DNA of 64,000 nucleotides, taken from Verrucomicrobiota bacterium. GTDB taxonomy: Bacteria > Verrucomicrobiota > Verrucomicrobiia > Limisphaerales > CANJXF01. Every line of letters begins with the position of its first letter. The first letter of the stretch is position 1. A program made the position numbers and the translations under genes. Shown here piece by piece: positions 2,161 to 27,275 of this stretch. The stretch is taken from the NCBI GenBank assembly GCA_038214755.1, contig JBBQRQ010000003.1, positions 55,059 through 119,058 on the forward strand, read 5' to 3'. The notes under the pieces are model-generated. The model ran no database searches and was not told where the DNA came from. It saw nothing but the letters and a program-made list of their open reading frames with translations.

Positions 2161-2162
2161 AA

Positions 2163-2237: not shown

Positions 2238-2260
2238 TACCGATAATGTTCCGCCCAGCT

Positions 2261-2994: not shown

Positions 2995-3021
2995 GACGGG
3001 AACGTAGCGGAACAATACGAG

Positions 3022-3240: not shown

Positions 3241-3367
3241 GTGGTGCCGAATCGTATCGTAGGGCAGGCTTTCGAGCCTGCCGGTGAGCGCGAATTCCTA
3301 GCCCGACTTGGCGGATTCGAGGAGTTTAGCTGAATTGGATTTGCAAAAAAAAATCTATTTCAACAAC

Positions 3368-3418
3368 GCCTTAAAGCGCGCGGCTCAACGTGATTTCGTC
3401 GGCGAATTCCAAACCGCC
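3368..3418 (-). pseudogene. Short RecR C-terminal remnant
   Basis: GGLEFADEITLSRAL*G resembles the RecR tail GGxLE(Y/F)ADExTLxRALEGR, with E replaced by a stop. Confidence 0.55.
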
Positions 3419-4385
3419 GACACGCCTTCCCGCGCCACTTGCCAGGGAATTCCCCCGCCGCCAGCGCCGCATGAATTCCGTCATCAACTCGCTGGTGCCC
3501 TTGTCGCTGACTTTCCAATGACTGGCCAACACGCTCTCCGCTCCCTTAATCCTAAACGCGCGGCGCAACGACATCACGCCTTCGCCAATCTTCACCTCGC
3601 CCGAACCGGAGTCGCACGCGCTGAGGATCACCAATTCCGTTCCCTGCAAATTGAGCAGCGACGCCTCCAATCCGGTGAGCACGCCGTCTTCCGCGTCAAA
3701 CCTCGTAGCAGCCGACGTGAGGAGGCTCTGAACTCCCGGTTGAGAGTTGGTAGTTGAGAGGTGAGAGGTTGAGGTTAGAGCCTCCTCACGTCGGCTGCTA
3801 CCAACCAGATTCGTCGCGTGATTCGCCCCGGCCAACGCGATGCCGTAACGCACCAGCGGATTTTCCCAATCGTTTTGTGGTAGGGAAGCGTTCCACCGCG
3901 TCCCTGAATTCCTCACGAATGAATCCAATGAATCCATCGAATTCGTATGTTTCAATTCCTGATCGCTCAGAAAAAATCCATGCGTGGCCAGATGCAACAC
4001 GCGCGGCGAAACTACCGCTTTCAATTCCGCCTCACGCGCTTCGGCGCCGAGTTTCAAAACAGCGTCATCGCCCAGCAACTTCGCCACCGAACGCGCTTCT
4101 TCCGCCGCGCTCGGCAACGGTGTAAATTTGAACCCACGAAACGAACGGCTCAAAAACTTCATCGGAGGGACGCGCTCCACAAGTCCCAAACCTTTTTTCG
4201 GAGAAATGGTCTCCGCAGGTCCCGAACCCGTTCCGTTTTTCCCAATTAAATCAGGGACTTGCGGAGCGCGTCCCTCCGGAAATGAATTCAAATCCAAATC
4301 GAAATCTGGTTTGCCCATGACCAGCGATTTTGAACTTTGAACCTTAAACTTTGAACTCGTTCGCGCGAGCCGGACAATACCTTGA
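3419..4385 (-). pseudogene. CHAT-domain (caspase-like peptidase) fragment, copy 1
   Basis: VLHLATHGFF, LVILSACDSG, VLASHWKVSD. Highly similar to 5305-6741 but truncated at both ends. Confidence 0.85.
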
Positions 4386-4424
4386 CGAACACCTTGCCAC
4401 TCGGGACGCCGATAGATTAAGTTT

Positions 4425-4739
4425 GTGACCATGACAACAGCAGCCACCGTTCCCCACATTCGCCTCGATGACCGAGGACGCACCTGGGTGGACGACACGA
4501 ATGTGAAAGTCATCGAGATTGCGCTGGATCATCTCGCTTACGGCTGGAGCGCGGAAACCATCCAGGAAAATCATCCTCATCTTTCGCTGGCCCAGGCTTA
4601 TGCCGCACTGGCGTGGTATTATGACCATCAAACGGAAATGGATGCCGAGATTAAGCGGCAAGGAGAGCGGGTAAAAGCCCTTCGCGCCGAGGCCAAACCG
4701 TCGCCTCTCGCCCAACGAGTTTTGCGTCGCGGCGCATGA
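4425..4739 (+). CDS. DUF433-family antitoxin-like protein
   Basis: GWSAETIQENHPHLSLAQAYAALAWYYDH pattern; ATGA overlap with the downstream PIN-like gene. Confidence 0.85.
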   Translation: MTMTTAATVPHIRLDDRGRTWVDDTNVKVIEIALDHLAYGWSAETIQENHPHLSLAQAYAALAWYYDHQTEMDAEIKRQGERVKALRAEAKPSPLAQRVLRRGA

Positions 4740-5077
4740 GCCTCGGCCTTTATATGGATGTTCATGTTCCGCTGCCCGTCACGCGTGGTTTGCGGCGACG
4801 CGGGGTGGACGTGCTGACCGCTCAGGAGGACAAAACCACGAGCCTTCCCGATCCAGAATTGCTCGACCGGGCCACTGCGCTGGGCCGCATCCTCTTCTCG
4901 CAGGATGACGATTTGGTGGCGGAAGCTGTGCGTCGCCAACGGAAGGGAGAACCATTCGCCACCGTCGTCTATGCGCGACAACTCGACCTCTCGATTGGAC
5001 GTTGCATCATGGATTTGGAAGCCCTGGCCAAAGCGGCTGAACCCGGCGATGAGCAAGGTCAGATCATCTTTCTGTGA
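4736..5077 (+). CDS. DUF5615 PIN-like toxin
   Basis: LYMDVHVP...LRRRGVDVLT...DPELLDRATALGRILFSQDDD. Confidence 0.85.
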   Translation: MSLGLYMDVHVPLPVTRGLRRRGVDVLTAQEDKTTSLPDPELLDRATALGRILFSQDDDLVAEAVRRQRKGEPFATVVYARQLDLSIGRCIMDLEALAKAAEPGDEQGQIIFL

Positions 5078-5304
5078 AGAAATTCTGGCGAATGGCCGGA
5101 AAGCCGCCAGAACTTACCCAGAGCCGGGACTGATGCCTTTGGAGCCAAGCAGATTTCTTTGACTGGGAAAAAATGTGAAGCGCTCTTCGGTGGTTGGAAA
5201 GAAGCCCAAAAAACTCTCCGTAACCGACCAAGGCGAGAAAGTTGTCATTACTTTTGACTCACCCCTTTCAGGGTAATGAGCTTCACGAAGATGTTAACGG
5301 AATG

Positions 5305-6741
5305 TCATCGCCACTGCCCCGTCAACGTGAACGCGGCCCAAAAGTAGGGATTGGAGTAATCACTTTTCATTCCCTTCGAGCGCAAAGACGACAACTGCGC
5401 CTCGCGCCAAGCCTTCGCGCGCGGTTCGCCCGAATGCCAGCGACGCATGAATTCTGTCATCAACTCGCTGGTGGCCTTGTCGCTCACTTTCCAATGACTG
5501 GCCAATACGCTCTCCGCTCCCGCAATCCTGAACGCGCGGCGCAACGACATTACGCCTTCGCCGATCTTCACCTCGCCGGAACCGGACTCGCACGCGCTGA
5601 GGATCACCAATTCCGTTCCCTGCAAATTGAGCAGCGACGCTTCCAATCCGGTGAGCACGCCGTCCTCGGCGTCAAACCTCGTAGCAGCCGACGTGAGGAG
5701 GCTCTGAACTCCCGGTTGAGAGTTGGTAGTTGAAGGTTGAGAGGTTGAGGTTAGAGCCTCCTCACGTCGGCTGCTACCAATCAGATTCGTCGCATGATTC
5801 GCGCCCGCCAGCGCGATGCCGCAACGCACCAGCGGATTTTCCCAATCATTATTCGGTACGGCGAGACTCCGTCGAGCCGTGAAATTATTTCCGGCCAGCA
5901 ACGAATCGCCCATCGAATTCGTCTGTTTCAATTCCTGATCGCTCAGAAAAAAACCATGCGTGGCCAGGTGCAACACGCGCGGAGAAACCACCGCCTTCAA
6001 TTCCGCCTCACGCGCGTCGACGCCAAGTTTCAAAACCGCGTCGTCGCTCAGCAATTTCGCCACCGAACGCGCTTCATCCGCCGCGCTCGGCAACGGCGTA
6101 AAGTTGAACCCGCGAAACGAACGGCTCAAAAACTTCGTAGCAGCCGACGTGAGGAGGCTCTGATTTCCGGGTTGAGAGTTGAAAGTTGGGAGTTGAGAGT
6201 TTGATTTCAGAGCCTCCTCACGTCGGCTGCTACGTGGCGCTGGCAAATCCAAATCGAAATCCGGATTGCCCATGACCAACGACTTTGAACTTTGAACTTT
6301 AGACTTTGAACTCGCTTGGTTTGCCAAGCGAACAATCTCCCGCCCACTTGTGACGTAGCTGATGGTTTTTTCTTCCAGCAAAAACTTATTGCCGACAGGA
6401 AGTATCTCGAACGGCAAGCGACTCAACTGGCCATCGGGACAAATAATCAGGTGCGAAACATTCGTCAGATATTTGGCGAGCGGCGCATAAACCAATTCGC
6501 TCAAGCGTTGCAAAGCGGGCGGCAAATCGCGCGCGGCAAATTGTCCAGCGGACATCCGTTTGCAAATCAACTCCACAGTCTCATTGACCGGCGCAGCTTC
6601 GCCCAAATCCACGCGCTCGACGATGATGTTGGTGGAGTCACGCGCCAGCGGAAAAGTGAGATACGCGGCGTAACGTCGCTCCTTCCATTGGTTCGTCTTG
6701 GCGGCAAAATCGTAATGCTGATACTGAATGAAATCCACTAG
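5305..6741 (-). pseudogene. CHAT-domain protein, C-terminal part, 5'-truncated by IS1182 (copy 2)
   Basis: PDGQLSRLPFE, HLATHG, LSACESG, PYFWAAFTLTG. The frame runs into the IS end at CTAG 6738-6741. Confidence 0.9.
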
Positions 6742-14856: not shown

Positions 14857-16287
14857 CTACACGTTTTTATTTCTTCGATGCGAAGATTTGTTGCCCAATT
14901 CGCCAAAATATTTTTCCCACGTTTCCGTTTGCTCAGGCGATGCATCAAATGGATCGAGCAGATGCAGCGACTCGCCACCGTCCGCTCCCGTAATTTCCCA
15001 ATCGATATAATAATCAACCGATTGTTTTCGCAAAAGTTGCATGGCACGAGAGCGAACTTGCGCGCGCGTATTTTGTGGCGGAATCATTTTCGCTTCCACG
15101 ATTTCCTCGTCAGGAATTTTCCACGCGGCGGGAGTTTGCGCTAGCGCCAGCCCGAGACTGCGCGCGGGATCGACGTTATGAAATTCCAAATCCTGCGACT
15201 TCAACCACGGATGGCTCCAATCAATTTTCTCCTGCTCCTTGAATTGATTTAAAAGCCAGTGCTTGGTGATCCAATCCACCTGGCCGATGAGTTCGTCAGG
15301 TTTGCGGGCCAGCGAATCGAGCGTCGCGCCCCAAATTTTTAACAGGTCATCCGTCTCCTTGTCGCGCCCGCGAAGCTCGGCCCGCGCCGCCTCGTGATAT
15401 TGCTGCAAAATCCCGACCGCTTCCAAACATCGACCGTCGCTCAACGGGACGAGCCACGGGCCGGTGAGTTGATGAGCGAGCGTGCGAAACGTCATCACTG
15501 CATCGGCCAACATTATTTTTGGCAGGCAATCGAGTTCGAACAAATCCAGCACAAGCGAAGTCGTCCCCACTTTCAAAAGAAGCGTGGCCGGCAAGACATT
15601 GGTGTCGCCGTGCAAAAGATGGAGGCGTCGATACTTCCGAGCGTCGGCCAGCGGTTCGTCGCGAGTATTGATGATGGCGCGATTGAATTGGACCCATTCA
15701 AAAAGATCGTTGTTGATGTAATCGGCGCGCTGGCTGATCTGAAAAACATTGTCCGCGCCAGGCCGGGTGAATTCTCCGCGAGACTCCGCCGCCAGCGTCG
15801 CGCCAACCCGTCCTGCGCTGACGTAAAGAAGTCGCAAAGTAAGAAACGCCAGCAGTGAATGGACATTGGTTTCCGTCAGAGGAGCCGAGCGGCGCACCAG
15901 ATAATTTTCGTGGCAGCCGAAAGTCGCGCCGGAATAATGATCGATATTGTTCCGAATGAAACTTACGTCTCGATCCAGCCGCAAATCTTTCAACGCGTCC
16001 AACAGAATGGCGTCGCCCGCCTGATCGTAACGAAGCACATCCAGGAGCGACATGCATTCGGGCGTGCAATATTCCAAATGCCCCATGTCGATGTAAGCGC
16101 GTCCGCCATTGAAAAGAAAACCGCCATTGCCCGCTGGCTCGTCCCAATCCCGCTGATGAACATCGATCAGGCCATGACGTTGCTCGCGAAAAATCCAGTC
16201 GCGCACCCGCGTCACCGCGCCGGGAATGCCTGGCGTATCGTTTGTTAAACAGCCGTATTCGGTTTCAAGTCCAACCACGCGATTCAT
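14857..16287 (-). CDS. pafA: PafA-like (Pup/UBact) protein ligase
   Basis: GLETEYG, NGGRAYID, GCHENY, QISQRAD, TRDEPLAD, RRLH. Lacks the Dop-type DHAHPEYS motif. Confidence 0.85.
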   Translation of the reverse strand: MNRVVGLETEYGCLTNDTPGIPGAVTRVRDWIFREQRHGLIDVHQRDWDEPAGNGGFLFNGGRAYIDMGHLEYCTPECMSLLDVLRYDQAGDAILLDALKDLRLDRDVSFIRNNIDHYSGATFGCHENYLVRRSAPLTETNVHSLLAFLTLRLLYVSAGRVGATLAAESRGEFTRPGADNVFQISQRADYINNDLFEWVQFNRAIINTRDEPLADARKYRRLHLLHGDTNVLPATLLLKVGTTSLVLDLFELDCLPKIMLADAVMTFRTLAHQLTGPWLVPLSDGRCLEAVGILQQYHEAARAELRGRDKETDDLLKIWGATLDSLARKPDELIGQVDWITKHWLLNQFKEQEKIDWSHPWLKSQDLEFHNVDPARSLGLALAQTPAAWKIPDEEIVEAKMIPPQNTRAQVRSRAMQLLRKQSVDYYIDWEITGADGGESLHLLDPFDASPEQTETWEKYFGELGNKSSHRRNKNV

Positions 16288-16312
16288 AAAACGCTTAACT
16301 TGTGCGCACCTT

Positions 16313-16426
16313 CACTGCTACCAAAGTAGAGGGGCAGACATCCTGTCTGCCAAGGGGTTTCCAGCCCCAAAGACAACGATTCGCGGGCAAGATGCCCGCT
16401 TGACAGGCTGGCAGCCTGCTCCACTA
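16313..16426. repeat. REP-type element, inverted copy of 18502-18615
   Basis: Aligns by eye over ~110 bp with the reverse complement of 18502-18615. Confidence 0.85.
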
Positions 16427-16486
16427 TTCGTCCCAGCGTAGCAGTGGCAAGATACGCATCCTTCACTCCGTTCCGAAAAAATTCGG

Positions 16487-17224
16487 CTACAAATTCAAGT
16501 CCGCCAGGGTCAAAGATTCGTAACGCGCCAGCCGCGAGGTTTTTCGCGCGAGCCATCCTAGTTCGACGACTTTATCTTTCACTGCTTCCTTCCAGCCGGC
16601 GCGACGCTCTTCTTCCGATGGCACGGACTCAAAAGATTTATTGGCGATCAAACACCACCATGCCTGCAAAAGAAGATCAGCCATTTCGTCGCGCGAATTT
16701 TTTCCTTTGGCCGCTTCACTCAACCATTTGTGCGCGGCGGACTCAGCCTCCGTCTGGCTGGCCGCGATGGCGATACCGCCATTTTGGGTTTGATAGGAAC
16801 CATCGAAATGGAGCCGGACAATCAAATCGTGCTCGGGCGCGAGACCAATTTCCACCAGCAGCAATTCAACGAGAAACGGCGCGCTGAAGATTTGTTCGAA
16901 ATTAATTTTAAGTTGCGGGCTTAATCCGAAACTGACCAGGCGGCGCAGGCTCACATCTTCGGGCGCGCGGGTGAATGCTTCCATGTGCGCGGCGTCGATG
17001 GCGGCCTGGCGAATTTTCTCGATGTCAGCAGGATGGCCAAGTCCGGCCAGCGCGTGACGATCGAACAACTCAAAAACTTTCGATTGGCCGCCGCCGACAC
17101 CGAGCAGAAGAATTCCGTCGGGCAGACTCGCGGCGAAAACGGGCGAACCGCCCTTGAGTTGCTCGCGCACGTACTCGCGGCGATTCCCGACTGCTTCCAG
17201 CCAACGATATGGTTCTTCGGTCAT
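16487..17224 (-). CDS. prcA: 20S proteasome alpha subunit
   Basis: N-terminal PY...RREYVREQLKGGSPV, SKVFELFDR, GHPADIEKIR; lies between prcB and pafA. Confidence 0.88.
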   Translation of the reverse strand: MTEEPYRWLEAVGNRREYVREQLKGGSPVFAASLPDGILLLGVGGGQSKVFELFDRHALAGLGHPADIEKIRQAAIDAAHMEAFTRAPEDVSLRRLVSFGLSPQLKINFEQIFSAPFLVELLLVEIGLAPEHDLIVRLHFDGSYQTQNGGIAIAASQTEAESAAHKWLSEAAKGKNSRDEMADLLLQAWWCLIANKSFESVPSEEERRAGWKEAVKDKVVELGWLARKTSRLARYESLTLADLNL

Positions 17225-17231
17225 TTGTTAA

Positions 17232-17430
17232 ATTTACGATTTACGATTTACGATTTACGATTCACGCAGATTTTGCATTCGATCGTAGCGCAGCTTTGCA
17301 AGCCGCTGTATCTCCGATTTGCAATCGGCAGGACGCTGGATTGAGCGACAGCCTACAGGTTGCAAACCTGTGATACGGCAGGTTAAAAACCTGCGCTACG
17401 ATTTTCACGATTCAACGATTCAACGATTTA
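17232..17430. repeat. Heptamer tandem repeats (gatttac/gattcaac) flanking a GTAG REP doublet
   Basis: atttacg x4 at 17232-17260, REP at 17285-17399, gattcaac repeats at 17409-17430. Confidence 0.8.
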
Positions 17431-18207
17431 CGCCGACATTTTCAAAAATTCTTTCTGCTGTTCTTCCGTGATTGTTTCGACTCCAGTCGGCCGTAAAAGT
17501 TTTATCGTCGCAAAAGTTTCCGTCGCCGGATTGACGCCGCCAGTGGCTGAGTCGAATTCCGACGCGGTCATCAAAATTCGCAACGCGAACTGCACGGCCT
17601 GGTTGAGATTCATTTCCGATGGACGCGGGTTGCCGTGACTCTCTTGAAAACTCAAAATGCTGCGAATCGTTCCTGAGCCAGAGCCGGACGCCGCGTAACC
17701 GACCGCTTGAAATTGCGCGCCGAGTGGATCGTAAAAATAAACCTGCGGCTTGGCCGGGGAAGCAGCGTGATCGAGTCCCGCGAAAAGCGGGACCACCACT
17801 CCCACGCCCTGCATCGTCATCGGCAAGTTGTCGCGCAACAATCTGGCCAGCGCGCGGACTTTTGCGGGAAGGCTCAGCGCCTGCAATTGGCTGCGCCGAT
17901 AATATTCAAAAGAAGTTTGCAGCACGCGCGCCATTTCAAAAGCTGTCGCCGGAACGCCCGCAATCGCGAGCAACGACGTGGAATCGATCTCAATGATTTT
18001 ATCAACACGGTCGGTGACGATGACATTGCCTGCCGTCGCTCGACGGTCACCCGCCATCAAAATTCCTTCGGCGAAATGAAATGCGAAAACTGTCGTCGCT
18101 TGCGTTTGTACGGGAGCGTCGCCGGAAATTTCCGAACGAACGGGCGACAGTTTGTGCTCGGAGAGAAGCGAAAGAAAATCTCCGGCGATCGAGGCAGTGG
18201 GACTCAT
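17428..18207 (-). CDS. prcB: 20S proteasome beta subunit
   Basis: 37-aa propeptide then TTVFAF...AGDRRATAG, DKI, GSGS, DSATGG. Confidence 0.92.
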   Translation of the reverse strand: MSPTASIAGDFLSLLSEHKLSPVRSEISGDAPVQTQATTVFAFHFAEGILMAGDRRATAGNVIVTDRVDKIIEIDSTSLLAIAGVPATAFEMARVLQTSFEYYRRSQLQALSLPAKVRALARLLRDNLPMTMQGVGVVVPLFAGLDHAASPAKPQVYFYDPLGAQFQAVGYAASGSGSGTIRSILSFQESHGNPRPSEMNLNQAVQFALRILMTASEFDSATGGVNPATETFATIKLLRPTGVETITEEQQKEFLKMSA

Positions 18208-18948: not shown

Positions 18949-19722
18949 TTATTTGCTGATGCCACGTTCGCTGGTGCGGACAAACTCAATGAGATGTTTG
19001 AGTTCAGGTGACATGGCCAAATTGCTTTCGATTTGCGCAAGTGCGTTGGGGGTGGTCAGGCCATCGCGGAATAAAATTTTGTAAGCTTGCTTCAGCGCGG
19101 ATTGAACTTCGGCCGGAATTCCATTTCGTTCCATCCCGATTTTATTGATCGTGCGCGTTCCGGCGGGATTTCCGTCGGCCATCATGAACGGCGGAACATC
19201 CTGCACCACCTTCGAACAACCGCCGATGATCGACATTTTTCCGATGCGACAAAATTGATGAATCGCCGCCAAACCGCCGATGATCGCGTAATCTTCCACG
19301 GTCACGTGTCCGGCGAGAGTGGCGACGTTGGACATGATGACGTGATTTCCAATGGTAACGTTATGAGCGATGTGGGAATACGCTAGGATATGATTATACG
19401 AGCCGACTTTGGTGACTTCGCCATCGCCTGTGGCGCTGTTGACGGTGACGTATTCGCGAAAAACATTCTGGTCGCCAATTTCGGTTCGAGTGATTCCGCC
19501 TTTCCATTTCAAATCCTGGGTTTTCAAACCGATGCTGGCGAATGGAAATATTTCATTGCCGCTTCCGAGACAAGTGTGGCCGTCAATAACGACGTGGGAA
19601 TGCAACCGGCAATTTTCGCCGAGAGAAACATTTTCGGCGATGACGCAAAACGGGCCGATGAAACAGTCCGCCGCAATGCTGGCCTTGGGATGAACGATGG
19701 CAGAGGAATGAATTTCAGTCAT
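18949..19722 (-). CDS. lpxA: UDP-N-acetylglucosamine acyltransferase
   Basis: Hexapeptide repeats, QDLKW, HIAH, IHQFCRIG, DVPPF. Confidence 0.97.
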   Translation of the reverse strand: MTEIHSSAIVHPKASIAADCFIGPFCVIAENVSLGENCRLHSHVVIDGHTCLGSGNEIFPFASIGLKTQDLKWKGGITRTEIGDQNVFREYVTVNSATGDGEVTKVGSYNHILAYSHIAHNVTIGNHVIMSNVATLAGHVTVEDYAIIGGLAAIHQFCRIGKMSIIGGCSKVVQDVPPFMMADGNPAGTRTINKIGMERNGIPAEVQSALKQAYKILFRDGLTTPNALAQIESNLAMSPELKHLIEFVRTSERGISK

Positions 19723-19752
19723 AGATCGATTGCCGAAAAATTTTCAAAAAAA

Positions 19753-19823
19753 GGAACGCCGATTCCCCCATCGGCTCGGCGAAACGCTCAATTGCCATGC
19801 GCCGAACTGGAGTTCGGCGTTCC
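19753..19823. repeat. REP-like inverted repeat
   Basis: ggaacgccga...tcggcgttcc; same family as 54858-54932. Confidence 0.75.
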
Positions 19824-19874
19824 GTTTGCACGACGCCATTCCAGAAATTTATTTTGGCAACTCTTCTTTCCAAA

Positions 19875-21242
19875 CTACGCGTCCATCAAAATAAAAGTCA
19901 CTTCGGCCTCGCTCACCACTTCTCCATCAACCGTGCAAACACCTTTCGCTTTCCCGATTTTTCCGCGCGATTTCGTCAGCTCGACTGAGATGGTCAACGT
20001 GTCGCCCGGTTTGACAGGCCTTCTCCATTTCACACTGTCGGCCGCCATGAAATAAGCGAGCTTACCGAAATTTTCCGCGCGCCGCATGGTGAGAATTCCC
20101 GCTGCCTGCGCCATCGCTTCGAGCTGCAGCACGCCCGGCATGATGGGGTGATTTGGAAAATGCCCCTGAAAATACGGCTCGCCCATCGTCACGTTTTTCA
20201 CGGCGACGATTTTCGTTTCCTCGATTTGCGTCACGCGATCCACCATTAGAAACGGATAGCGATGCGGCAGGACTTTCATCACTTGATTGACGTCCATGCT
20301 CGTCGCGCTCAACGCCGCGGTCCAATCTTCTCTCGTCGGCATGGGAACGCCTTCGGGCTTCGGCGCGGAGGGCAAGGGAGGGGGCGCGAAAGTCTGCGCG
20401 GCGACCAGCGGCTTGCGCATTTGCGCGGTGATTTGCCGGGCGAGTTCGCAATTGGCGGTGTGACTTGGTTTCACAGCCAACACGTGCCCGGTGATAGGAC
20501 GACCGATCAAGGAAAGGTCTCCGATGATGTCCAAAATTTTGTGGCGAACGAATTCATCCGGATAACGCAACGGCTCGGTGGTGAGAATCGCGTCCTCGCG
20601 AATGACGACGGCATTTTCCAAACTCCCGCCTTTGATCAAACCGTTTTTGATGAGAGCTTCGATCTCCTCGAAAAAACAAAACGTGCGAGCATGAGCCAGG
20701 TCGCGTTCCCAGGTTTCCGGCGAAAGTTCGACGCTGAAAAATTGGGAGAACCGCCCCTTTTTGTCGGCGCTGGTGCAACTGATTTTAAAACGGTCATGTG
20801 GAAAAATCGCGATGACCGATTCCTCATTCTCCAGTTCGATAGGCGTGTGAATCTGAAAAGTTTCACGTTGCGCGCCCTGCGGAACGACGCCGGCGGCGTG
20901 AATGATTTTCACGTAATCGCGCGCGCTGCCGTCGCCAACCGGCGGCTCATTCGCGTCCAGTTCAACGATGGCATTGTCAATCCCGCGACCAGCGAAGGCC
21001 GCGAGCACGTGTTCGACGGTGTGAATTTTCGCGTTGCCCTTGAAAAGCGAAGTAGAGCGGTTGGTCGTGCTGACATTTTCGATGCGCGCTTCAATTTCCG
21101 GTTTGCCTTCGAGATCGAGTCGGCGAAAGCGAATTCCGCCATCCGGCGGCGCAGGCAAAAAAGTCATGTTGACGCGATTGCCACTGTGCAAACCGATCCC
21201 GGAAAAACTCGCGGGTTGCCGCAGGGTTTGTTGCTGTAACAC
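19875..21242 (-). CDS. lpxC: Bifunctional LpxC/FabZ
   Basis: GIGLHSG, TVEH, ARTF, HKILD followed by LPHRYPFLMVD, GHFP, PGVL. Probable GTG start at 21242. Confidence 0.95.
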   Translation of the reverse strand: MLQQQTLRQPASFSGIGLHSGNRVNMTFLPAPPDGGIRFRRLDLEGKPEIEARIENVSTTNRSTSLFKGNAKIHTVEHVLAAFAGRGIDNAIVELDANEPPVGDGSARDYVKIIHAAGVVPQGAQRETFQIHTPIELENEESVIAIFPHDRFKISCTSADKKGRFSQFFSVELSPETWERDLAHARTFCFFEEIEALIKNGLIKGGSLENAVVIREDAILTTEPLRYPDEFVRHKILDIIGDLSLIGRPITGHVLAVKPSHTANCELARQITAQMRKPLVAAQTFAPPPLPSAPKPEGVPMPTREDWTAALSATSMDVNQVMKVLPHRYPFLMVDRVTQIEETKIVAVKNVTMGEPYFQGHFPNHPIMPGVLQLEAMAQAAGILTMRRAENFGKLAYFMAADSVKWRRPVKPGDTLTISVELTKSRGKIGKAKGVCTVDGEVVSEAEVTFILMDA

Positions 21243-21345
21243 TCGCGCATTAGAGCAATCGAAAAGTTCATTGGCAAGCGAGCAGTGCCCGGACTGCGGG
21301 CAAAGAAAATCCAAGCGAAGCTTGTTCGGCGGAAACGCCGATGCG

Positions 21346-24264
21346 ATGCTTAAGCTAGTGAACTTTTTGGGATTTTTTAAAAACTGTCTGGGAATTTTCT
21401 TTCTGGCTGTTTGTCTTTCGTCATTCAATTTATATGGCGGAATCATCCTCGTTAATTCAACCGCTCCGATGGGAGGAACCGGCCAGAGTTGGGCGACCGC
21501 GTTTTCGAAAATTCGAGAAGCGATAAATTCTTCCGCAGCCCACGATGAGATTTGGGTTGCCGCCGGAGTTTATCAGGAAAATCTGCTTCTTCACGAAGGC
21601 ATTATTCTCTTCGGCGGCTTTTCAGGAGTAGAAACAAATCGTTCAGAACGCGATTGGAATATTCATTCCACCGTCATTGATGGGCGCAATCTCGGCCCTG
21701 TGCTCAACTTGCCCTTTCACACTTCAATCCCGACTCGGCTCGACGGCTTTGTGATTCAAAAGGGCCGCGCAGATTTTGGCGCGGGAATTTATTCTGCGGG
21801 TGGAGAATTTATCTCCGCCAATAATTTGATAATTCACAATAGCGGAGACGGAATTTTTGGCGGTGGCGGTCTGTTCGTGGATGAAACCGCGCAACTGGCA
21901 AACGGGTCTCCGATTACTTTTTTCACAAATGTCGCGAGCCAACTTCTCCGACTCCATTCGCCTGGACTGAGCGCGGAGCGAATTCAGGTTTTCCCGACTA
22001 ACTGTTACTCGCCCGAAGTGCATCGCCTGCTTCAACTCGCGGCCAACATTTACGATGCGACGACAAATCGCGGGAGCAGTTATCCCTTCTATCCGTCCGT
22101 TTTTCGTCCGCTCTTTACCAACGAAAGCGGAAATATTTTTATTTCCGGTTATGTAGAGGCCAGCAATACCAACTTTCTCGAGAATCAATGGCTCGACGTT
22201 TCGACACCGGCAGACCGCCAACTCTTGAGCAATCCCTCCATCGCATCGAATGCGAACATCTACGGACAACCGATCACCATCGGGACGAAAAAAGGTTTTC
22301 CGAATTTCAACGAGTTTTCGATGGAAACAATTTCACAGATCACCCGTTCATTGGAATTGCGCAAACCCACGACGAATTCAATTTCAAATGAAACCAACCA
22401 AATGTATTCGCTGATGTTCTCGAATGTGTTCGGTGTGGAAACGTGGAATTCTTATCCGCAAATATTCGCCCGCCCTTTGGAGTTGCATGTCTCGCATAAA
22501 TTCGCCGCATGGATTACCGACGAAACGGGTGCAACGATTTGGCCGACGAGTGGAGTGTGTTTCACGACTAATTTTTCCCCCGTCCCGATGATCGTTTCAA
22601 ACTGGCCAGGCTTTTTTCTTTCAAGTTCAAATTCTTTCGTCCTTCCCTACTTCACGAATATTTTCACGCTTCCGCTTTCTCAATATCTAAGTGCTTCTCC
22701 GCATTTTCAGATCGCCCCATCGAGTGTTGGCTTCGAAAGATTTGTCGGTTTTCCGGTGCCCCAGTGGAAGTTGCATCTAAAAAATCGAATTCAATACTGG
22801 GCGACAGACGCGGAACGAGTCGTGGATTTTGTAAACCTGGGCGAGCAGGTAACTGAGATTGATCTAACGCGGGAATTGTTTGATCCCTTTCTCTACTCTT
22901 CGCCCGTGATTGCTGGAATGTGGGCTACCAATCGGTTAAACGGTTCTATTAATTCTGGCGTGCCGACTCTTGGCATACTTAAACAAATGGTTGTAGCTCT
23001 CGGCCAAATTGCCGTGAACGATTCGGACTGGTATTCCTTCAATGCCACTGCCGGGCCGAATAAGGATCAAGCCATATCAGTGTTTCGGAAGTTCATGGGC
23101 TTCACACCATTTCCGCCGTATCAAAATATTCCGATGCCAACGAACCTGACGATGCAAGCGCCATTTGCTCCGACGCTAAAAATTTATCATCGCGCAAGTG
23201 TGGGAGCGAATGATCCGATCATTCATTTTCTCCTCGAGGATTTGAAAGATGAGACCCTCTCGAGCGTCACTCTCGCGATGGTCCCTCCATCTTCTCCGCA
23301 GCCCAACTCAAATCTCCGCCGTCTTAACGAACGGTATCGGCCTTACGGATTCAGTGCGGACTATTCTTACGATCCTTCATTCGAGGACGAGGGCATTCAC
23401 CATTCGAGAGACTGGGATTTTCCCACCAACAATTTGTTTAATCTGCAATGGCTTGATCGCGTGCATCGAGGAACACCGTGGCAAACCATTTACACCGGCT
23501 TCGATTCCTCTTTATTGAACAACGCCAAAATGGCCGAGTGGTTGGTTTGGTCTGGAAGCCGGGAAACCTATCCGACAAACGATTGGAAAATTGCGGAATT
23601 ACTTTTGAACGAACGGGCGAATTTGGGAACGACCGTCTCAAACGGTTCCCCCGCTTTCGTGAACAACACATTTGCGGCAAATACGGGAATCAATGGCGCG
23701 GCCGCTTCATTCGCTGGTCCGGCATCTTTTGTGAACAATATCGTCGCTGAAAATTCTTCCGGCTTATTTCGTCTTTCCACGACAAACGAAGTCATTTTTC
23801 AAACGAACTGCGTCTTCAACAACGTCCACTATAATTTTTTAAATCTCAGCGGCGGCTCAGGAAATATTGCGGCAAGTCCGCAGTTTGTTTCGGCAGGAAC
23901 CGACAACTTTCATTTGTTGGCGACTTCCCCATGCATTGATGGGGGCAGCGCTGATGCTTTTACTTCGGGTTGGCTGTTGAACGATTCCGCGCGCATGCAA
24001 GGGGCAGGAATTGATCTTGGGGCATTTGAACTCAGTTCGTTGGATAGTCCCGTGGTCACTTCCCCAACGATTTCTCCTGTGTCGAATCAATTCACATTTC
24101 AAGTAACCGGATTTACCGGCGAACGGTATGTCGTTGAAATCTCCAACGATCTGATTCAGTGGATGCCGCTTTCAACAAATGTGACCACCAATGGTTTTTT
24201 CCAGATCAATGACGCAGTGAGCGTTGCATCAAATCGTTTTTATCGAGCCGTCCGCGCGCCTTAG
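21346..24264 (+). CDS. Secreted beta-helix/choice-of-anchor-Q-like protein with a large inserted domain and C-terminal 'RFYR' domain
   Basis: Hydrophobic N-terminus, GQSWATAF...IWVAAGVY, FHLLATSPCIDGG...DLGAFE, ends SNDLIQW...RFYRAVRAP. Confidence 0.75.
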   Translation: MLKLVNFLGFFKNCLGIFFLAVCLSSFNLYGGIILVNSTAPMGGTGQSWATAFSKIREAINSSAAHDEIWVAAGVYQENLLLHEGIILFGGFSGVETNRSERDWNIHSTVIDGRNLGPVLNLPFHTSIPTRLDGFVIQKGRADFGAGIYSAGGEFISANNLIIHNSGDGIFGGGGLFVDETAQLANGSPITFFTNVASQLLRLHSPGLSAERIQVFPTNCYSPEVHRLLQLAANIYDATTNRGSSYPFYPSVFRPLFTNESGNIFISGYVEASNTNFLENQWLDVSTPADRQLLSNPSIASNANIYGQPITIGTKKGFPNFNEFSMETISQITRSLELRKPTTNSISNETNQMYSLMFSNVFGVETWNSYPQIFARPLELHVSHKFAAWITDETGATIWPTSGVCFTTNFSPVPMIVSNWPGFFLSSSNSFVLPYFTNIFTLPLSQYLSASPHFQIAPSSVGFERFVGFPVPQWKLHLKNRIQYWATDAERVVDFVNLGEQVTEIDLTRELFDPFLYSSPVIAGMWATNRLNGSINSGVPTLGILKQMVVALGQIAVNDSDWYSFNATAGPNKDQAISVFRKFMGFTPFPPYQNIPMPTNLTMQAPFAPTLKIYHRASVGANDPIIHFLLEDLKDETLSSVTLAMVPPSSPQPNSNLRRLNERYRPYGFSADYSYDPSFEDEGIHHSRDWDFPTNNLFNLQWLDRVHRGTPWQTIYTGFDSSLLNNAKMAEWLVWSGSRETYPTNDWKIAELLLNERANLGTTVSNGSPAFVNNTFAANTGINGAAASFAGPASFVNNIVAENSSGLFRLSTTNEVIFQTNCVFNNVHYNFLNLSGGSGNIAASPQFVSAGTDNFHLLATSPCIDGGSADAFTSGWLLNDSARMQGAGIDLGAFELSSLDSPVVTSPTISPVSNQFTFQVTGFTGERYVVEISNDLIQWMPLSTNVTTNGFFQINDAVSVASNRFYRAVRAP

Positions 24265-24351
24265 TTTGTTCCCGAATTACCCCCATTTACCCATGCGAAA
24301 TTATTTTTGCTCGCCAGCTTGAGCAACTCATCACGCTTTTTTTCTCACCTC

Positions 24352-24395
24352 GCAAAGTAAATGTCCCTGTCCAACCTTGCGGTCAAACAGGGACA
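24352..24395 (-). terminator. Intrinsic terminator-like hairpin
   Basis: Minus strand TGTCCCTGTTTGACC-GCAA-GGTTGGACAGGGACA followed by TTTACTTT. Confidence 0.7.
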
Positions 24396-25222
24396 AAAAT
24401 GGGGATGGGAGTTCGCCACTCTCTCTTTCCCGCGCTGACATTTGGCGCCAAATTGGCTGCCAGCTTCCCGACGCCATTCTCCACGGCAAGCGGAGTTTTT
24501 CTCGGCCTCATAGCAGGGCCGTCCAGCGCTTTGCAGCGTCTGAATTTTTGAGTGAGGCCTCTTGGCTCGCTTGGGCTGGCGTTTGCGGACGCCAACTCGC
24601 GAACCGGGTGAAGACACGTTTGTGATTTGCGTATCCGCGTCTTCACCATTTGCCCTGGGTCGGCCATCGCTTTTGACGATGCGTTGCCCCAGTGCCACGG
24701 GTCTGACCTCTTACCTCTCAGGTTGCCTTTCGCTCACAAGTCAGCGGCGTCGTTTTTAACACCGCCGACGTTTTGGAAGTTTGACGAGCCTTGCCTGGGC
24801 TTCGTTTCCTTGCCGGTGCGCGCGCTCATTTTGTTGCGTCTTTCGACGTTTTTCGTTTGGCAGATTTTGTTTTGCAAAACCGCCAGAGTCGCTCGCTCCG
24901 TGCTGGCGCACAGTAGCAACCGTTTACCCTCCGGGTAACTGCGATTCGCTCAAACTCGAAACGGGTTTGAACTACTTGACTCGGCTCGAAACGGTTTCTA
25001 ATCGCCTCTCGCCGCTCAGTTCCTTCTTCGCGTTACTGGCACGCGCGAACGTGTCAGAGGAACTGGTGAATCCTGCCTCCATTTTTGAATCTTGCGATTC
25101 GAACCTGGAGGGGTTGAGCCAACCAGCCTGACTCGACCTTTCCCCGGTCGCCCGGGATTATCCTTGAGACGCCTTGCAATTTCTTTCGTTCTCACCGGCC
25201 ATCTCAGCTCTTTCAATGAACT
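24352..25222 (-). ncRNA. Candidate large structured non-coding RNA (~870 nt), family not recognised
   Basis: No credible ORF. More than ten stems, several GNRA tetraloops and G-U pairs that work only on the minus strand. Upstream -10-like and boxA-like motifs; downstream terminator. Confidence 0.7.
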
Positions 25223-25260
25223 GCGAACATCCTAATGAATTTTTAAAATATTTCTACGAA
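25210..25260 (-). promoter_or_regulatory. Putative promoter and boxA-like element of the candidate ncRNA
   Basis: AT-rich stretch, TAGGAT (-10-like, 25229-25234), then GTTCATTGAAAG (25210-25221). Confidence 0.4.
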
Positions 25261-25533
25261 TTCTTATGCACAGGCTTATTCGCTGAATCGTTTCGACGGA
25301 GGATTTGAAAACGACTGAAGCGTCGAGGAGGAAGAGCGCACAAACCGTTTTAAATTTTTGTTATTCACCAAAAAAATCTTCGGGATTTACCGAGGGTGAA
25401 TAAGTTTTTTTGCGGAGAGAATTACTTTTCAAAGTTTTTTCGGCCACAACCTCTTTGTAGCTGCGTCTCGTAAGAGCGCGGATTAAACCAATCGCCATTT
25501 CTTAACCGTAACTATTCAGCGGAGAAAGTTGCT

Positions 25534-25725
25534 CGCCCTCACCCTACCCTCTCCCCCGAGGAGAGGGAATAGTATCAGCGTTTCTCGAAAGTTAGAAAGC
25601 TCGAGGTGTCATTGCCGCCTCTTCATCAATCGACGAAAAACGGACAGAAGAATCCGGTGACTTCGTTTTTACATAAGCGCGGCAAACGTTTCTCCCTCTC
25701 CTCGGAGGAGAGGGCCGGGGTGAGG
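25534..25725. repeat. ccctctcc...ggagaggg palindromic repeat pair
   Basis: Two hairpins in opposite orientation; same family at 59301-59450. Confidence 0.75.
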
Positions 25726-25913
25726 TCGAGCGTTTCTTTTTTACTGAATGGTTCGGGCTTCAAGCGGGTGACGCTGCAATTCAGTAAACGCCTCTTTTCA
25801 ACGCAGAGGTCGCAAAGGTTCTCGCAGAGGAGCGCAGAGAAACAACCTTTGCGTCCTCTGCGACAACCTCTGTGCCCGCTGCCTTGAAACCGGTTGGAAA
25901 CACACGACTGCGC

Positions 25914-27275
25914 CTACATCTTCGCAATGATGTTGTCGCCAAACTCGGAGCATTTAATTTCGGTCGCGCCTTCCATCTGTCGCGCGAAATCGTAGGTGAC
26001 GCGCTTGGAAGCAATCGCGCCATTGAGTCCTTTGATGATGAGATCGGCGGCTTCGGTCCAGCCCATGTATCGCAACATCATTTCGCCGGAAAGAACGACT
26101 GAGCCGGGATTGACGCGGTCTTGATTCGCATATTTCGGGGCGGTGCCGTGCGTCGCTTCGAAAATGGCGTGACCGGTGACGTAATTGATATTCCCGCCGG
26201 GTGCGATGCCAATTCCACCGACCTGCGCGGCGAGCGCATCGCTCAAATAATCGCCATTCAAATTCAACGTGGCGATGACATCAAACTCTTCCGGTCGCGT
26301 AAGAACCTGCTGCAAGACGATGTCGGCGATGGCGTCTTTGATGAGCACCGCGCCATTCTTCAAAGCGGCTTTCTGTTCATCATTGGCGGCGGCTTCACCT
26401 TTTTCCTTTTTGGTTTTTTCCCATTTTGCCCAGGTATAAACTTTGTCGCCGAAAATCCGTTCCGCGGCGGAATAACCCCAATCACGAAATGCGCCTTCGG
26501 TATATTTCATGATGTTTCCTTTGTGAACGATGGTGACGCTTTTGCGTTTGAACTTCAGCGCGTATTCGACGGCCGCTTTGACCAGACGAATCGTGCCGAT
26601 ATTTGAAACGGGTTTGATACCAATGCCGACTTGCACAGGAATGTGCGAAGTGTCGTGATCCGGCGAAGCGAGTTTCATGTACTCGGCGATTTTCTCTTTG
26701 GTGCCAAAACGAATTTTGCTGAAATCCTTTGGAAATTCCTTGGCGAGAAAGCCCAAAACCTTTTGCGCTTCGGGCGAACCTCCGACGTATTCGATGCCCG
26801 CGTAAATGTCTTCCGTGTTCTCGCGGAAGATGGTCATGTCCACTTTTTCGGGATGTTTCACGGGCGAGGGAACGCCGGTAAAATATTGCACCGGGCGCAG
26901 GCAAACATAGAGATCAAGCATTTGGCGCAAGGCCACATTAAGCGAGCGAATGCCTCCGCCAACCGGCGTGGTCAGCGGGCCTTTGATGCCGACGAGAAAT
27001 TCCTTGAAGGCTTCAACAGTATCATCGGGCAGCCAGTTATTAAATTTTTTGAAAGAAGTTTCGCCAGCGAAAACTTCAAACCAGGAAATTCTTTTGTTGC
27101 CGCCGTAAGCTTTGAGAACCGCAGCGTTAAAAACGCGTTCGCTGGCCGCCCAAATATCCGGCCCAGTGCCGTCACCGCGAATGAATGGGATAACGGGATT
27201 TTCGGGAACGTTCAGCTTGCCGTTGGCGATGGTGATTTTATTTCCGGCGGGCGGGGTGATGTTTTGGTAGGGCAT
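25914..27275 (-). CDS. icd: NADP-dependent isocitrate dehydrogenase
   Basis: [59 protein letters not shown]. Confidence 0.98.

What the first reader, a model, noticed from the sequence alone, without database searches (positions are those of the whole stretch)
24352..25222. Candidate ~870-nt large structured ncRNA of unrecognised family
Seen in sequence: no convincing ORF, yet the minus strand is a near-continuous run of stems. Examples: GAAUC-GCAA-GAUUC (25087-25100) inside CCUCCA/UGGAGG; CAGUUCCU/AGGAACUG (25017-25065); CGUC-GAAA-GACG (24837-24848); ACCU-GAGA-GGU (24713-24723) inside CUGACUU/AGGUCAG; a 12-bp stem GGUGAAGACGCG/CGUGUCUUCACC (24607-24647); CGCU-GCAA-AGCG (24527-24538) inside GGCCUCA/UGAGGCC; and a GCAA-capped terminator (24362-24395). 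GNRA loops and G-U wobbles read correctly only on the minus strand, and the linkers are A-rich. A TAGGAT -10-like box and a boxA-like GTTCATTGAAAG lie at the 5' end. The hairpins are unique in sequence, unlike the REPs elsewhere in the window. Established: GNRA loops and multi-way junctions typify large folded RNAs (rRNA, RNase P, GOLLD, OLE, ROOL). Inference: a stand-alone large RNA gene. I found no signatures of RNase P, tmRNA, rRNA or group I/II introns.
Basis: partly seen in the sequence, partly recalled or inferred. Interest (0 to 1): 0.9.

Follow-up and report, generated by a model that had tools for sequence, protein, structure and literature searches.

The report
Known MISL large noncoding RNA gene
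This stretch is a real gene for a large, intricately folded non-coding RNA, but it belongs to the already catalogued MISL family of Verrucomicrobia, whose function is still unknown.

Summary
Window 24408-25163 (minus strand) is a full-length match to Rfam RF03079, MISL RNA: 597.2 bits against a gathering score of 274.6, model 1-751/751. On 77 homologous loci the Rfam structure covaries strongly: 128 of 169 pairs carry compensatory changes. The internal ORFs are not conserved. The gene is single-copy. It occurs in many, not all, Verrucomicrobiota.

They take in three parts that lie outside the Rfam model:
- a 5' motif like the rRNA boxA, found in 76 of 77 loci;
- a covarying 5' hairpin, called P0 here;
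- a conserved intrinsic terminator.

DnaA-box-like sites cluster upstream of the promoter. Earlier notes of this scan gave that lead, and it was tested here. Contigs from four metatranscriptomes cover the RNA at very high k-mer depth. RNase P, 6S and tmRNA genes exist separately.

The function remains unknown. My best guess is an abundant trans-acting folded RNA, either a ribonucleoprotein core or a ribozyme. This scan had already found MISL in five other genomes.

The parts
25395..25403 (-). DnaA-box-like site, TTATTCACC on the RNA strand (one mismatch to TTATNCACA)
   Evidence: Distal site of the upstream cluster.
25361..25369 (-). DnaA-box-like site, GGTGAATAA (one mismatch to TGTGNATAA)
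   Evidence: The same motif recurs at this relative place in window-type relatives.
25264..25272 (-). Exact DnaA box, TGTGCATAA (reverse complement fits TTATNCACA), about 8 nt upstream of the -35-like hexamer
   Evidence: Strict boxes in -300..-61 of 77 loci: 37, against 0.28 +/- 0.49 in 200 dinucleotide shuffles. DnaA binding was not tested.
25229..25256 (-). Promoter-like region: -35-like TAGAAA (25256-25251; relatives have TTGTCG), 16-nt spacer, -10-like TAGGAT (25234-25229)
   Evidence: Read from the sequence and from aligned flanks of 18 window-type loci, which keep TAnnnT at this place. The consensus scan found no sigma-70 site. The transcription start near 25222 is inferred.
25207..25221 (-). 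boxA-like leader motif GTTCATTGAAAGAGC at the inferred 5' end of the RNA
   Evidence: A 15-mer of this type occurs in 76 of 77 loci, 40-46 nt before the core in 75 of those 76. It fits the pattern of the 8 rRNA-operon boxA sites of 4 MISL-bearing genomes. The exact 13-mer is unique to the MISL leader in G000, G141 and G092.
25164..25206 (-). P0 leader hairpin domain: closing stem UGAGA (25206-25202) with UCUCA (25169-25165). Not part of the Rfam model.
   Evidence: A closing stem of at least 4 bp occurs in 74 of 76 leaders, against 224 of 1520 shuffles, with more than 30 different helix sequences.
24408..25163 (-). MISL RNA core (Rfam RF03079, model positions 1-751)
   Evidence: 597.2 bits against a gathering score of 274.6. 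161 of 171 consensus pairs are canonical in the window. Covariation on 77 loci.
24697..24725 (-). Most conserved block of the core (contains the 20-mer used as search anchor): nearly every base is invariant in 77 sequences
   Evidence: Invariant columns 472-500 of the first row of alignment A1. Rfam pairs part of it in an invariant long-range helix (helices 19 and 20).
24396..24407 (-). Conserved 3' tail, CAYCCCC plus a U-rich linker, beyond the Rfam model end
   Evidence: Aligned 3' flanks.
24352..24395 (-). Intrinsic terminator: 15-bp hairpin with GCAA loop (24395-24362) and a U-rich run (24361-24352)
   Evidence: The hairpin is kept with compensatory changes and followed by a U-run in 18 of 18 window-type loci shown. 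RNAalifold predicts it in both clades.

Best explanation
Window 25222-24352 (minus strand) is the transcription unit of a MISL RNA (Rfam RF03079). It is a single-copy chromosomal gene of a Verrucomicrobiota bacterium for a structured non-coding RNA of about 870 nt.

Shown here:
- full-length family membership;
- a structure that covaries across 77 loci;
- no conserved reading frame;
- conserved flanking signals.

Inferred, with my odds:
- Transcription starts near 25222 from a sigma-70-like promoter that sits just downstream of DnaA-box-like sites (about 0.5 that DnaA controls it).
- The first 15 nt of the RNA are a boxA-like element. It recruits NusB/NusE and the other Nus factors, as on rRNA operons. 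That would protect this long untranslated RNA from Rho and help it fold during synthesis (about 0.55).
- A covarying hairpin (P0) and the 751-position core follow, and an intrinsic terminator ends the RNA.
- The product most likely acts in trans as an abundant folded RNA, either the core of a ribonucleoprotein or a ribozyme, and not by antisense pairing (about 0.6). Its biochemical role is unknown.
For: Identity: cmscan gives 597.2 bits (gathering score 274.6), E 7e-181, model 1-751/751, minus strand. 161 of 171 consensus pairs are canonical in the window.

Structure, on 77 loci: 85.0% of cells paired against 36-43% with slid partners. 128 of 169 pairs have compensatory change. Covariation score 0.359 against 0.07-0.11 slid. 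0 of 500 shuffles reach it.

Not coding: the four longest internal ORFs are intact in 3-11 of 77 homologues. Each of the four is broken by stops or a frameshift in all three same-genus relatives. There is no period-3 signal, and no Pfam match.

Stand-alone gene:
- One copy in the 5.1-Mb genome.
- Neighbours differ between clades.
- In the window the downstream gene is convergent.
- The terminator is conserved.

Leader: a boxA-like 15-mer occurs in 76 of 77 loci at a fixed distance from the core. The P0 closing stem occurs in 74 of 76, against 224 of 1520 shuffles. The rRNA operons of 4 MISL-bearing genomes carry GCTC[T/A]TTGAAA-type boxA in the 16S leader and GTTCTTTGA[A/C]A-type in the spacer, and the window motif fits that pattern. 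The 11-nt pattern occurs 58 times in 2 x 5.1 Mb of this genome, so I expect about 3e-4 by chance in a 60-nt leader.

Papers on Nus factors:
- They bind boxA, prevent Rho termination and are regarded as regulators of rRNA folding (abstracts of PMC4807359 and PMC5725501).
- The gammaproteobacterial consensus is GYTCTTTAANA (passage of PMC5725501).
- boxA also sits upstream of CRISPR arrays (passage of PMC7862264).

DnaA boxes: 37 strict boxes in -300..-61 of 77 loci, against 0.28 +/- 0.49 in shuffles. At one mismatch or fewer, 188 against 8.6 +/- 2.8, and 68 of 77 loci have at least two.

Expression: in four metatranscriptome runs from four studies, 1044 to 6335 contigs at least 85% alike lie on 24382-25227. 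Single contigs have k-mer depth up to 6268.7 in a run of 1985 million letters. One contig with 1 mismatch in 92 nt reaches 25207, which is 44 nt beyond the Rfam model start. I infer that such depth cannot come from contaminating genomic DNA.

Not a replacement of a universal RNA: RNase P RNA, 6S and tmRNA are each found above cut-off in 4 of 4 MISL-bearing genomes, this one included.
Against: No experiment bears on function.
- Rfam files the family as 'Gene; sRNA'.
- MISL was not found in 15 of 41 relatives, including 9 of 25 high-quality genomes, so it may be dispensable. Stricter filters were used there, and sub-threshold full-length matches exist (214 and 204 bits).
- The RNA evidence consists of Logan contigs. 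They show neither strand, ends nor level, and most come from relatives, not this organism.
- The consensus scan found no sigma-70 promoter, and the window's -35 is poor.
- The boxA-like motif would sit at +2 of the RNA, closer to the start than in rRNA leaders. It is also an inverted repeat (GTTC-N7-GAAC), which would equally suit a DNA operator or a small 5' hairpin.
- The commonest, Opitutaceae-type version (GTTCCTTGATAGAAC, 37 of 76) differs at 2-3 positions from those genomes' rRNA boxA.
- The 77 loci are related, so counts of boxes and motifs are not independent events.
- Only 20 shuffles stand behind the z-scores.
Confidence: 0.85

Rival explanations
1. MISL acts as a classical base-pairing small RNA or regulator, as its Rfam type 'sRNA' suggests. 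The large fold would be mainly scaffold or stabiliser.
For: Rfam type label. It is a trans-encoded, terminator-capped gene. It has long invariant single-stranded stretches that could be seed regions.
Against: The conserved structure spans about 750 nt, with 30 helices and 128 covarying pairs. 18% of columns are invariant and 40% are at least 90% conserved across two orders. That is unlike antisense RNAs, whose sequences drift with their targets (argument in section 17 of PMC5737381). No target was sought.
Confidence: 0.1
2. The conserved 15-mer at the 5' end is not a Nus-factor boxA. It is a DNA operator for a dimeric regulator (inverted repeat GTTC-N7-GAAC over the start site) or a small 5' hairpin that protects the RNA.
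For: The motif is palindromic in 76 of 77 loci, and the window's GAGC arm still pairs through G-U. It overlaps the inferred start site. The Opitutaceae-type version departs from rRNA boxA at 2-3 positions.
Against: The loop part is as conserved as the arms, and together with the first arm it matches the rRNA boxA of the same phylum, which has no second arm. A 4-bp stem is weak. The arms show no compensatory changes: variants break the pairing (L004, L013, L043).
Confidence: 0.3
3. The region is a cis-acting leader or trailer of a neighbouring mRNA: the 3' UTR of the isocitrate dehydrogenase-family gene upstream, or a 5' leader of the gene downstream in relatives.
For: An Iso_dh-family gene lies upstream on the same strand (25914-27275). 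In relatives a PALP enzyme gene (11 of 77) or bipA (23 of 77) follows on the same strand.
Against: About 690 nt, with promoter-like signals and DnaA boxes, separate it from the upstream gene. A conserved terminator ends it. In the window the downstream gene is convergent. No neighbour is shared by all clades: no query was found beside MISL in more than 23 of the 77 loci.
Confidence: 0.03
4. It is a mobile-element or phage RNA of the GOLLD/ROOL kind, or an intron.
For: Its size and ornate fold resemble those RNAs (my recall; the main text of PMC5737381 describes ROOL and GOLLD).
Against: No Rfam match to any such family at E up to 1. One copy per genome. No tRNA in the 64-kb window. Only 2 short IMG/VR contigs hold the 20-mer anchor, against 117 stretches in genomes. 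Synteny is stable within clades.
Confidence: 0.02
5. It encodes one or more small proteins.
For: ORFs of 94-117 codons exist on both strands.
Against: These ORFs are intact in only 3-11 of 77 homologues and broken in same-genus relatives. There is no period-3 signal and no Pfam match.
Confidence: 0.01

Closest known systems
MISL RNA (Rfam RF03079)
   Same: Full-length match far above the gathering score, the same consensus helices, and the same phylum as nearly all named homologues.
   Different: Nothing in the core differs. The transcription unit is longer than the model: a boxA-like motif plus the P0 hairpin add about 58 nt at the 5' end, and a conserved tail plus terminator add about 55 nt at the 3' end. 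I could not see whether the discoverers noted these, because supplements are closed.
OLE RNA (large, abundant ribonucleoprotein RNA of Firmicutes; properties recalled)
   Same: What it may work like: a conserved non-coding RNA of about 600-750 nt, single-copy, lineage-restricted, with many invariant junction nucleotides and apparently abundant.
   Different: No sequence or structure match. No conserved partner gene sits beside MISL, whereas OLE sits beside its partner gene (recalled).
GOLLD and ROOL RNAs
   Same: Large, ornate bacterial RNAs of unknown function found by the same kind of comparative genomics (main text of PMC5737381).
   Different: Those are often near tRNAs and in prophages (PMC5737381). 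MISL is chromosomal and single-copy, has no tRNA nearby and is almost absent from viral contigs. No Rfam match.
rRNA-operon boxA / Nus antitermination, also used at suhB and CRISPR arrays
   Same: The leader motif fits the boxA pattern of the same phylum's rRNA operons. It stands at the start of a long untranslated, highly structured RNA (PMC5725501, PMC4807359, PMC7862264).
   Different: It lies at the very 5' end, forms an inverted repeat with a GAAC arm, and deviates in the Opitutaceae type. Nus binding is untested.
DnaA-box-controlled promoters (dnaA and others; recalled)
   Same: Two or more TTATNCACA-like boxes lie just upstream of the -35 in 68 of 77 loci.
   Different: The controlled gene is a large non-coding RNA. 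The locus shows no GC-skew switch. It is 155 kb from dnaA in one complete genome and on a different contig from dnaA in three others, so it is not evidently an origin.

Membership tests
MISL RNA (RF03079) | Covariance-model score at or above the curated gathering score over the whole model | tested here: met
   597.2 bits against 274.6; model 1-751 of 751; E 7e-181.
MISL RNA (RF03079) | Consensus secondary structure can form in this sequence | tested here: met
   171 of 177 model pairs are present and 161 of them are canonical.
MISL RNA (RF03079) | The structure is supported by covariation among homologues | tested here: met
   128 of 169 pairs have compensatory change. 85.0% of cells paired against 36-43% slid. 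0 of 500 shuffles reach it. Helices 3-5, 10 and 15 are weak in the MAFFT alignment.
MISL RNA (RF03079) | Non-coding, stand-alone gene | tested here: met
   ORFs are not conserved and there is no period-3 signal. It has its own terminator and promoter-like region. Neighbours vary.
MISL RNA (RF03079) | Host range Verrucomicrobiota | tested here: met
   76 of 80 listed record titles name Verrucomicrobiota taxa. Matches were found in 26 of 41 relatives, 21 of 151 genomes of the class sample and 9 of 151 of the phylum sample, and in 0 of 14 control genomes.
rRNA-type boxA (Nus-factor site) | Sequence fits the boxA of the same lineage's rRNA operons | tested here: met
   The window motif fits G[CT]TC[AT]TTGA[AC]A, a pattern derived from 8 rRNA-operon sites in 4 genomes. 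The looser test pattern G[CT]TC[AT]TTGA[ACG]A (third position from the end also G) fits 33 of 77 leaders, and the others differ at 1-2 positions.
rRNA-type boxA (Nus-factor site) | Lies in the transcribed leader, downstream of the promoter | tested here: inconclusive
   The start site is inferred from the -10-like element. One near-identical RNA-library contig reaches 25207. No 5'-end mapping was done.
rRNA-type boxA (Nus-factor site) | Binds NusB/NusE and suppresses Rho termination | not testable with these tools
   Needs binding and transcription assays.
DnaA-box cluster | Several TTATNCACA-type 9-mers in a short intergenic stretch, above chance | tested here: met
   37 strict boxes against 0.28 +/- 0.49 in shuffles. 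68 of 77 loci have at least 2 boxes at one mismatch or fewer. The window has 1 exact and 2 one-mismatch boxes.
DnaA-box cluster | Bound by DnaA, with an effect on transcription | not testable with these tools
   Needs ChIP or a footprint, and DnaA depletion.
GOLLD, ROOL, OLE, HEARO, RNase P, tmRNA, group I/II introns | Covariance-model match | tested here: not met
   cmscan of 24200-25500 at E up to 1 lists only MISL and two chance-level hits (20.7 and 19.3 bits). RNase P RNA, 6S and tmRNA lie elsewhere in the genome.

The most novel reading that the evidence does not exclude
MISL is a growth- or replication-coupled housekeeping RNA machine of Verrucomicrobiota. A DnaA-controlled promoter and rRNA-style Nus/boxA-assisted transcription would produce an abundant RNA of about 870 nt. 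Its invariant junctions would form a catalytic or protein-organising core of a kind not yet described, possibly feeding back on replication or ribosome biogenesis.
Probability: 0.2. Interest if true: 0.8.

Novelty: already known. Interest (0 to 1): 0.3.

Why it matters
As a discovery of a new RNA class it does not matter, because the family is already in Rfam. It matters modestly as annotation and as a handle on an orphan RNA. MISL is among the largest conserved bacterial non-coding RNAs and no function is in print in the library searched.

Four points from this work make it testable:
- likely full transcript ends;
- a boxA-like leader and a P0 hairpin that the Rfam model lacks;
- DnaA-box-like sites at the promoter;
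- very deep cover in soil and sediment metatranscriptome contigs.

Record titles also show the gene in isolates, not only in MAGs: a Limisphaera and a Horticoccus strain. Knock-down, end mapping, pull-down and cryo-EM are therefore feasible.

Tried and rejected
- **HrpB as a partner.** In Opitutaceae-type loci a DEAH-box helicase lies divergently upstream of MISL in 21 of 77 loci. In one complete genome it scores 611 bits against TIGR01970 HrpB. However, HrpB is over cut-off in 105 of 151 genomes of the class, including MISL-free families (18 of 18 and 17 of 17). It was not found at E <= 1e-100 in five MISL-bearing genomes, this one included. I rejected it as local synteny.
- **Upstream 180-aa protein of window-type loci as a partner.** It is present in 19 of 77 loci. 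It looks like an exported lipoprotein: a signal peptide, a Gly-Cys lipobox and a weak SecDF_P1_head match. An M23 peptidase gene follows it. I did not pursue it. Two of the 10 ORFs aligned were wrong-frame picks.
- **bipA, PALP, Iso_dh and BD-FAE neighbours.** These are clade-specific (23, 11, 1 and 8 of 77). The greedy ORF picks sent to Pfam (76 upstream, 76 downstream) include many shadow ORFs without matches.
- **Origin of replication at the locus.** There is no GC-skew switch in the window, and dnaA is not adjacent.
- **Phage link.** Only 2 short viral contigs hold the anchor.
- **Consensus promoter scan.** It found 0 sites.
- **Flanks in the laid runs.** In the four laid RNA runs the flanks 24100-24381 and 25228-25500 had no cover. 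Most contigs come from relatives whose flanks differ, and contigs cannot show ends, so I draw nothing from this.
- **Pairing of the 5' leader with the 3' tail.** I judged this by eye only. The tail is invariant while the leader varies without compensation, so there is no support.
- **A second boxA-pattern hit in the window (about 40688).** It lies inside a gene on the other strand, so it is chance.
- **16S rRNA in this MAG.** None was found. The rRNA leaders were therefore taken from four other MISL-bearing genomes.
Full report
**What is there.** Region 24352-25222 has no convincing ORF and folds far better than shuffled sequence. The minus strand gives z = -7.14 and the plus strand z = -5.08, with 20 shuffles each. 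A scan of the whole 64-kb window against Rfam 15 at gathering thresholds returns one match. It is RF03079, MISL RNA, at 24408-25163 on the minus strand: 597.2 bits (gathering score 274.6), E 7e-181, covering model positions 1-751 of 751. A permissive scan of 24200-25500 adds only two chance-level hits of about 20 bits.

**Structure.**
- I mapped the Rfam consensus structure onto the window through the cmscan alignment. 171 of 177 model pairs are present and 161 of them are canonical.
- For an independent test I collected homologues in two ways: a covariance-model search of relatives' genomes, and a search for an exact 20-mer from the most conserved block in one genome per species (117 stretches, 80 fetched with flanks).
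- Of all loci, 87 held the full 831-nt extract without N. I dropped 9 near-duplicates. I also left out the locus from the unpublished genome G009. That gave 77 sequences.
- On this MAFFT alignment the Rfam structure has 85.0% of cells paired, against 36-43% when partners are slid. 128 of 169 pairs carry compensatory changes. The covariation score is 0.359 against 0.07-0.11 slid, and 0 of 500 shuffles reach it.
- Helices 3-5, 10 and 15 are weak. They lie in stretches that vary in length between clades.
- The long-range helix closing the 3' domain (helices 19 and 20) is invariant, so covariation says nothing about it.
Four do not, and they fare poorly. Most clearly, GGCCUCA/UGAGGCC breaks in 45 of 77 sequences at a pair where the rival Rfam pair covaries.

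**Not coding.** The four longest internal ORFs are intact in only 11, 5, 3 and 7 of 77 homologues. Each of the four is disrupted by stops or a frameshift in all three same-genus relatives. Column variability has no period-3 component: rank 306 of 379 frequencies. None has a Pfam match.

**Ends of the gene.**
- The Rfam model begins at GGAUAAU (25163) and ends at 24408.
- Upstream, 76 of 77 loci carry a 15-mer of the type GTTC-N-TTGA-NN-GAAC (window 25221-25207). It lies 40-46 nt before the core in 75 of those 76. The exception among the 77 is L062, whose 5' third is aberrant.
- The stretch between the motif and the core forms a hairpin domain. Its closing stem has at least 4 bp in 74 of 76 loci, against 224 of 1520 shuffles, with more than 30 different helix sequences. 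I call it P0.
- In window-type relatives a TAnnnT element sits about 6 nt before the motif, and a TTGTCG element 16-17 nt further up. This places the start near 25222. The window's own -35 is poor, and the consensus scan found no promoter.
- Downstream, a conserved CAYCCCC tail is followed by a hairpin that keeps its place through compensatory changes, and then by a U-run.

**The boxA-like motif.**
- This MAG has no 16S gene, so I took the rRNA operons of four other MISL-bearing genomes.
- Each has GCTCTTTGAAA- or GCTCATTGAAA-type boxA 120-135 nt before the 16S gene. Each also has GTTCTTTGAAAG- or GTTCTTTGACA-type boxA in the spacer. The window motif fits the pattern derived from these eight sites.
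- The exact 13-mer occurs once each in G000, G141 and G092, always at the MISL leader.
- The 11-nt pattern occurs 58 times in both strands of this genome, so a chance hit in a 60-nt leader is about 3e-4 by my arithmetic.
- From papers: NusB/NusE bind boxA, the Nus complex prevents Rho termination, and it is regarded as a regulator of rRNA folding (abstracts of PMC4807359 and PMC5725501). The gammaproteobacterial consensus is GYTCTTTAANA, and the authors note that their survey ignored non-coding RNAs (passages of PMC5725501). boxA also stands before CRISPR arrays (passage of PMC7862264).
- A long, untranslated, highly folded RNA is just the kind of transcript that would profit. This step is inference.
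- The inverted-repeat form and the position at the very 5' end leave an operator or a 5' hairpin as a live rival.

**DnaA boxes.**
- After I had seen a conserved element upstream of the -35, earlier notes of this scan named such elements at MISL promoters of other genomes as DnaA boxes. I tested that here.
- In -300..-61 of the 77 loci there are 37 strict TTATNCACA boxes. That compares with 2 in the remaining 262.7 kb of the same loci, and with 0.28 +/- 0.49 in 200 dinucleotide shuffles.
- At one mismatch or fewer there are 188 boxes against 8.6 +/- 2.8, and 68 of 77 loci have at least two.
- The window has one exact box (25272-25264) and two one-mismatch boxes.
- The locus shows no GC-skew switch. 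dnaA is 155 kb away in one complete genome and on a different contig in three others. I therefore read the boxes as promoter control and not as an origin. DnaA binding is untested, and the loci are related, so these counts are not independent events.

**Distribution.**
- One copy in this 5.1-Mb genome, which is 97% complete.
- Relatives: 26 of 41 genomes match, 23 of them above the gathering score. This tally includes G000 and the unpublished G009. Among high-quality genomes the figure is 16 of 25.
- Class sample: 21 of 151. Phylum sample: 9 of 151, one of them outside the class. Control genomes: 0 of 14.
- 76 of the 80 listed record titles name Verrucomicrobiota taxa: Opitutaceae, Lacunisphaera, Opitutus, Cephaloticoccus, Horticoccus, Limisphaera, Pedosphaera and others. 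Four titles carry other or no names.
- Limisphaera belongs to Limisphaerales and Lacunisphaera to Opitutales.
- Two genomes of one family have full-length matches below the gathering score (214 and 204 bits), so diverged forms exist.

**Context.**
- No neighbour is universal. Opitutaceae-type loci have hrpB divergently upstream (21 of 77) and bipA downstream (23 of 77).
- Window-type loci have a lipoprotein-like gene upstream (19 of 77) and a PALP enzyme gene downstream (11 of 77).
- The window itself has none of these. An Iso_dh-family gene lies about 690 nt upstream, and a convergent 1076-aa ORF lies downstream.
- HrpB does not co-occur with MISL.
- RNase P RNA, 6S and tmRNA are present separately.

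**Expression.** I laid four metatranscriptome runs from four studies, two of freshwater sediment and two of soil, on 24100-25500 at 85% likeness or more. They place 1044, 1456, 6335 and 2083 contigs on 24382-25227. Individual contigs have k-mer depths up to 2891 and 6269. One contig with a single mismatch reaches 25207. These are contigs, mostly from relatives, and they show neither strand nor ends. I infer only that MISL-family RNAs are abundant in such communities, since genomic DNA could not reach that depth in runs of 0.3-2 thousand million letters.

**What it does.** This is unknown. 18% of core columns are invariant and 40% are at least 90% conserved across two orders, concentrated in junctions and loops. 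Section 17 of PMC5737381 argues that this pattern marks RNAs with demanding functions. Together with single-copy vertical inheritance, rRNA-like leader signals and high abundance, this makes a trans-acting folded RNA the best guess: the core of a ribonucleoprotein, or a ribozyme. I put that at about 0.6.

**Literature.**
- Searches for 'MISL RNA', for MISL with GOLLD/ROOL, for MISL with Rfam, and for RF03079 found only one relevant use. [quoted passage not shown] The one paper holding RF03079 (PMC9329510) is a Chryseobacterium genome report, seen in the listing only.
- The main text of PMC5737381 never names MISL. [quoted passage not shown]
- That MISL stems from that survey is my recall and that of earlier notes, so the discoverers' own remarks could not be checked.

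**Verdict.** This is a correct observation of an already known RNA family. This scan had already met MISL in five other genomes.

Noticed in passing
window 14857-18207 (minus): A Pup-ligase family gene (PF03136, E 4e-111) and a proteasome-subunit gene (PF00227) lie in a Verrucomicrobiota genome. This looks like a Pup-proteasome-type cluster outside its usual phyla.
   Followed up: no
window 18949-21446 (minus): An LpxA-like acyltransferase gene lies next to a 523-aa fusion of LpxC with a FabA/FabZ-like dehydratase domain.
   Followed up: no
window 21034-24264 (plus): A 1076-aa ORF convergent on the MISL terminator has no Pfam family. Its only match is a weak NCBIfam 'choice-of-anchor Q' domain near the C-terminus. 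No homologue was found beside MISL in the other 76 loci.
   Followed up: partly
window 25223-25913: The unusually long (about 690 nt) spacer between the Iso_dh-family gene and MISL holds the DnaA-box-like sites. Relatives have a divergent lipoprotein/M23-peptidase operon at this place instead.
   Followed up: partly
L176:3289-4431 (genome G092): In one relative of the same order, the transcription terminator factor gene rho (Rho_RNA_bind plus ATPase domain) lies directly downstream of MISL on the same strand.
   Followed up: no
L174 (genome G148) and 20 further Opitutaceae-type loci: MISL sits between a divergent hrpB (DEAH-box helicase) and a co-oriented bipA/typA. Both are RNA- or ribosome-linked genes, but HrpB does not track MISL across the class.
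   Followed up: yes
L062 (record titled UBA6614): This MISL copy has an aberrant 5' third. The usual leader motif is missing at its place, a boxA-pattern match lies 158 nt upstream, and the alignment needs long insertions.
   Followed up: no
genomes G025 and G182 (one family of the same order): Full-length MISL matches score below the gathering score (214.3 and 203.8 bits). This suggests a diverged subfamily that the Rfam threshold misses.
   Followed up: no
L035, L047, L049 (record titles): Three MISL-bearing contigs sit in MAGs titled Dongiaceae or Bifidobacteriaceae. Given the sequence type, these are probably mis-binned or mislabelled Verrucomicrobiota contigs.
   Followed up: no
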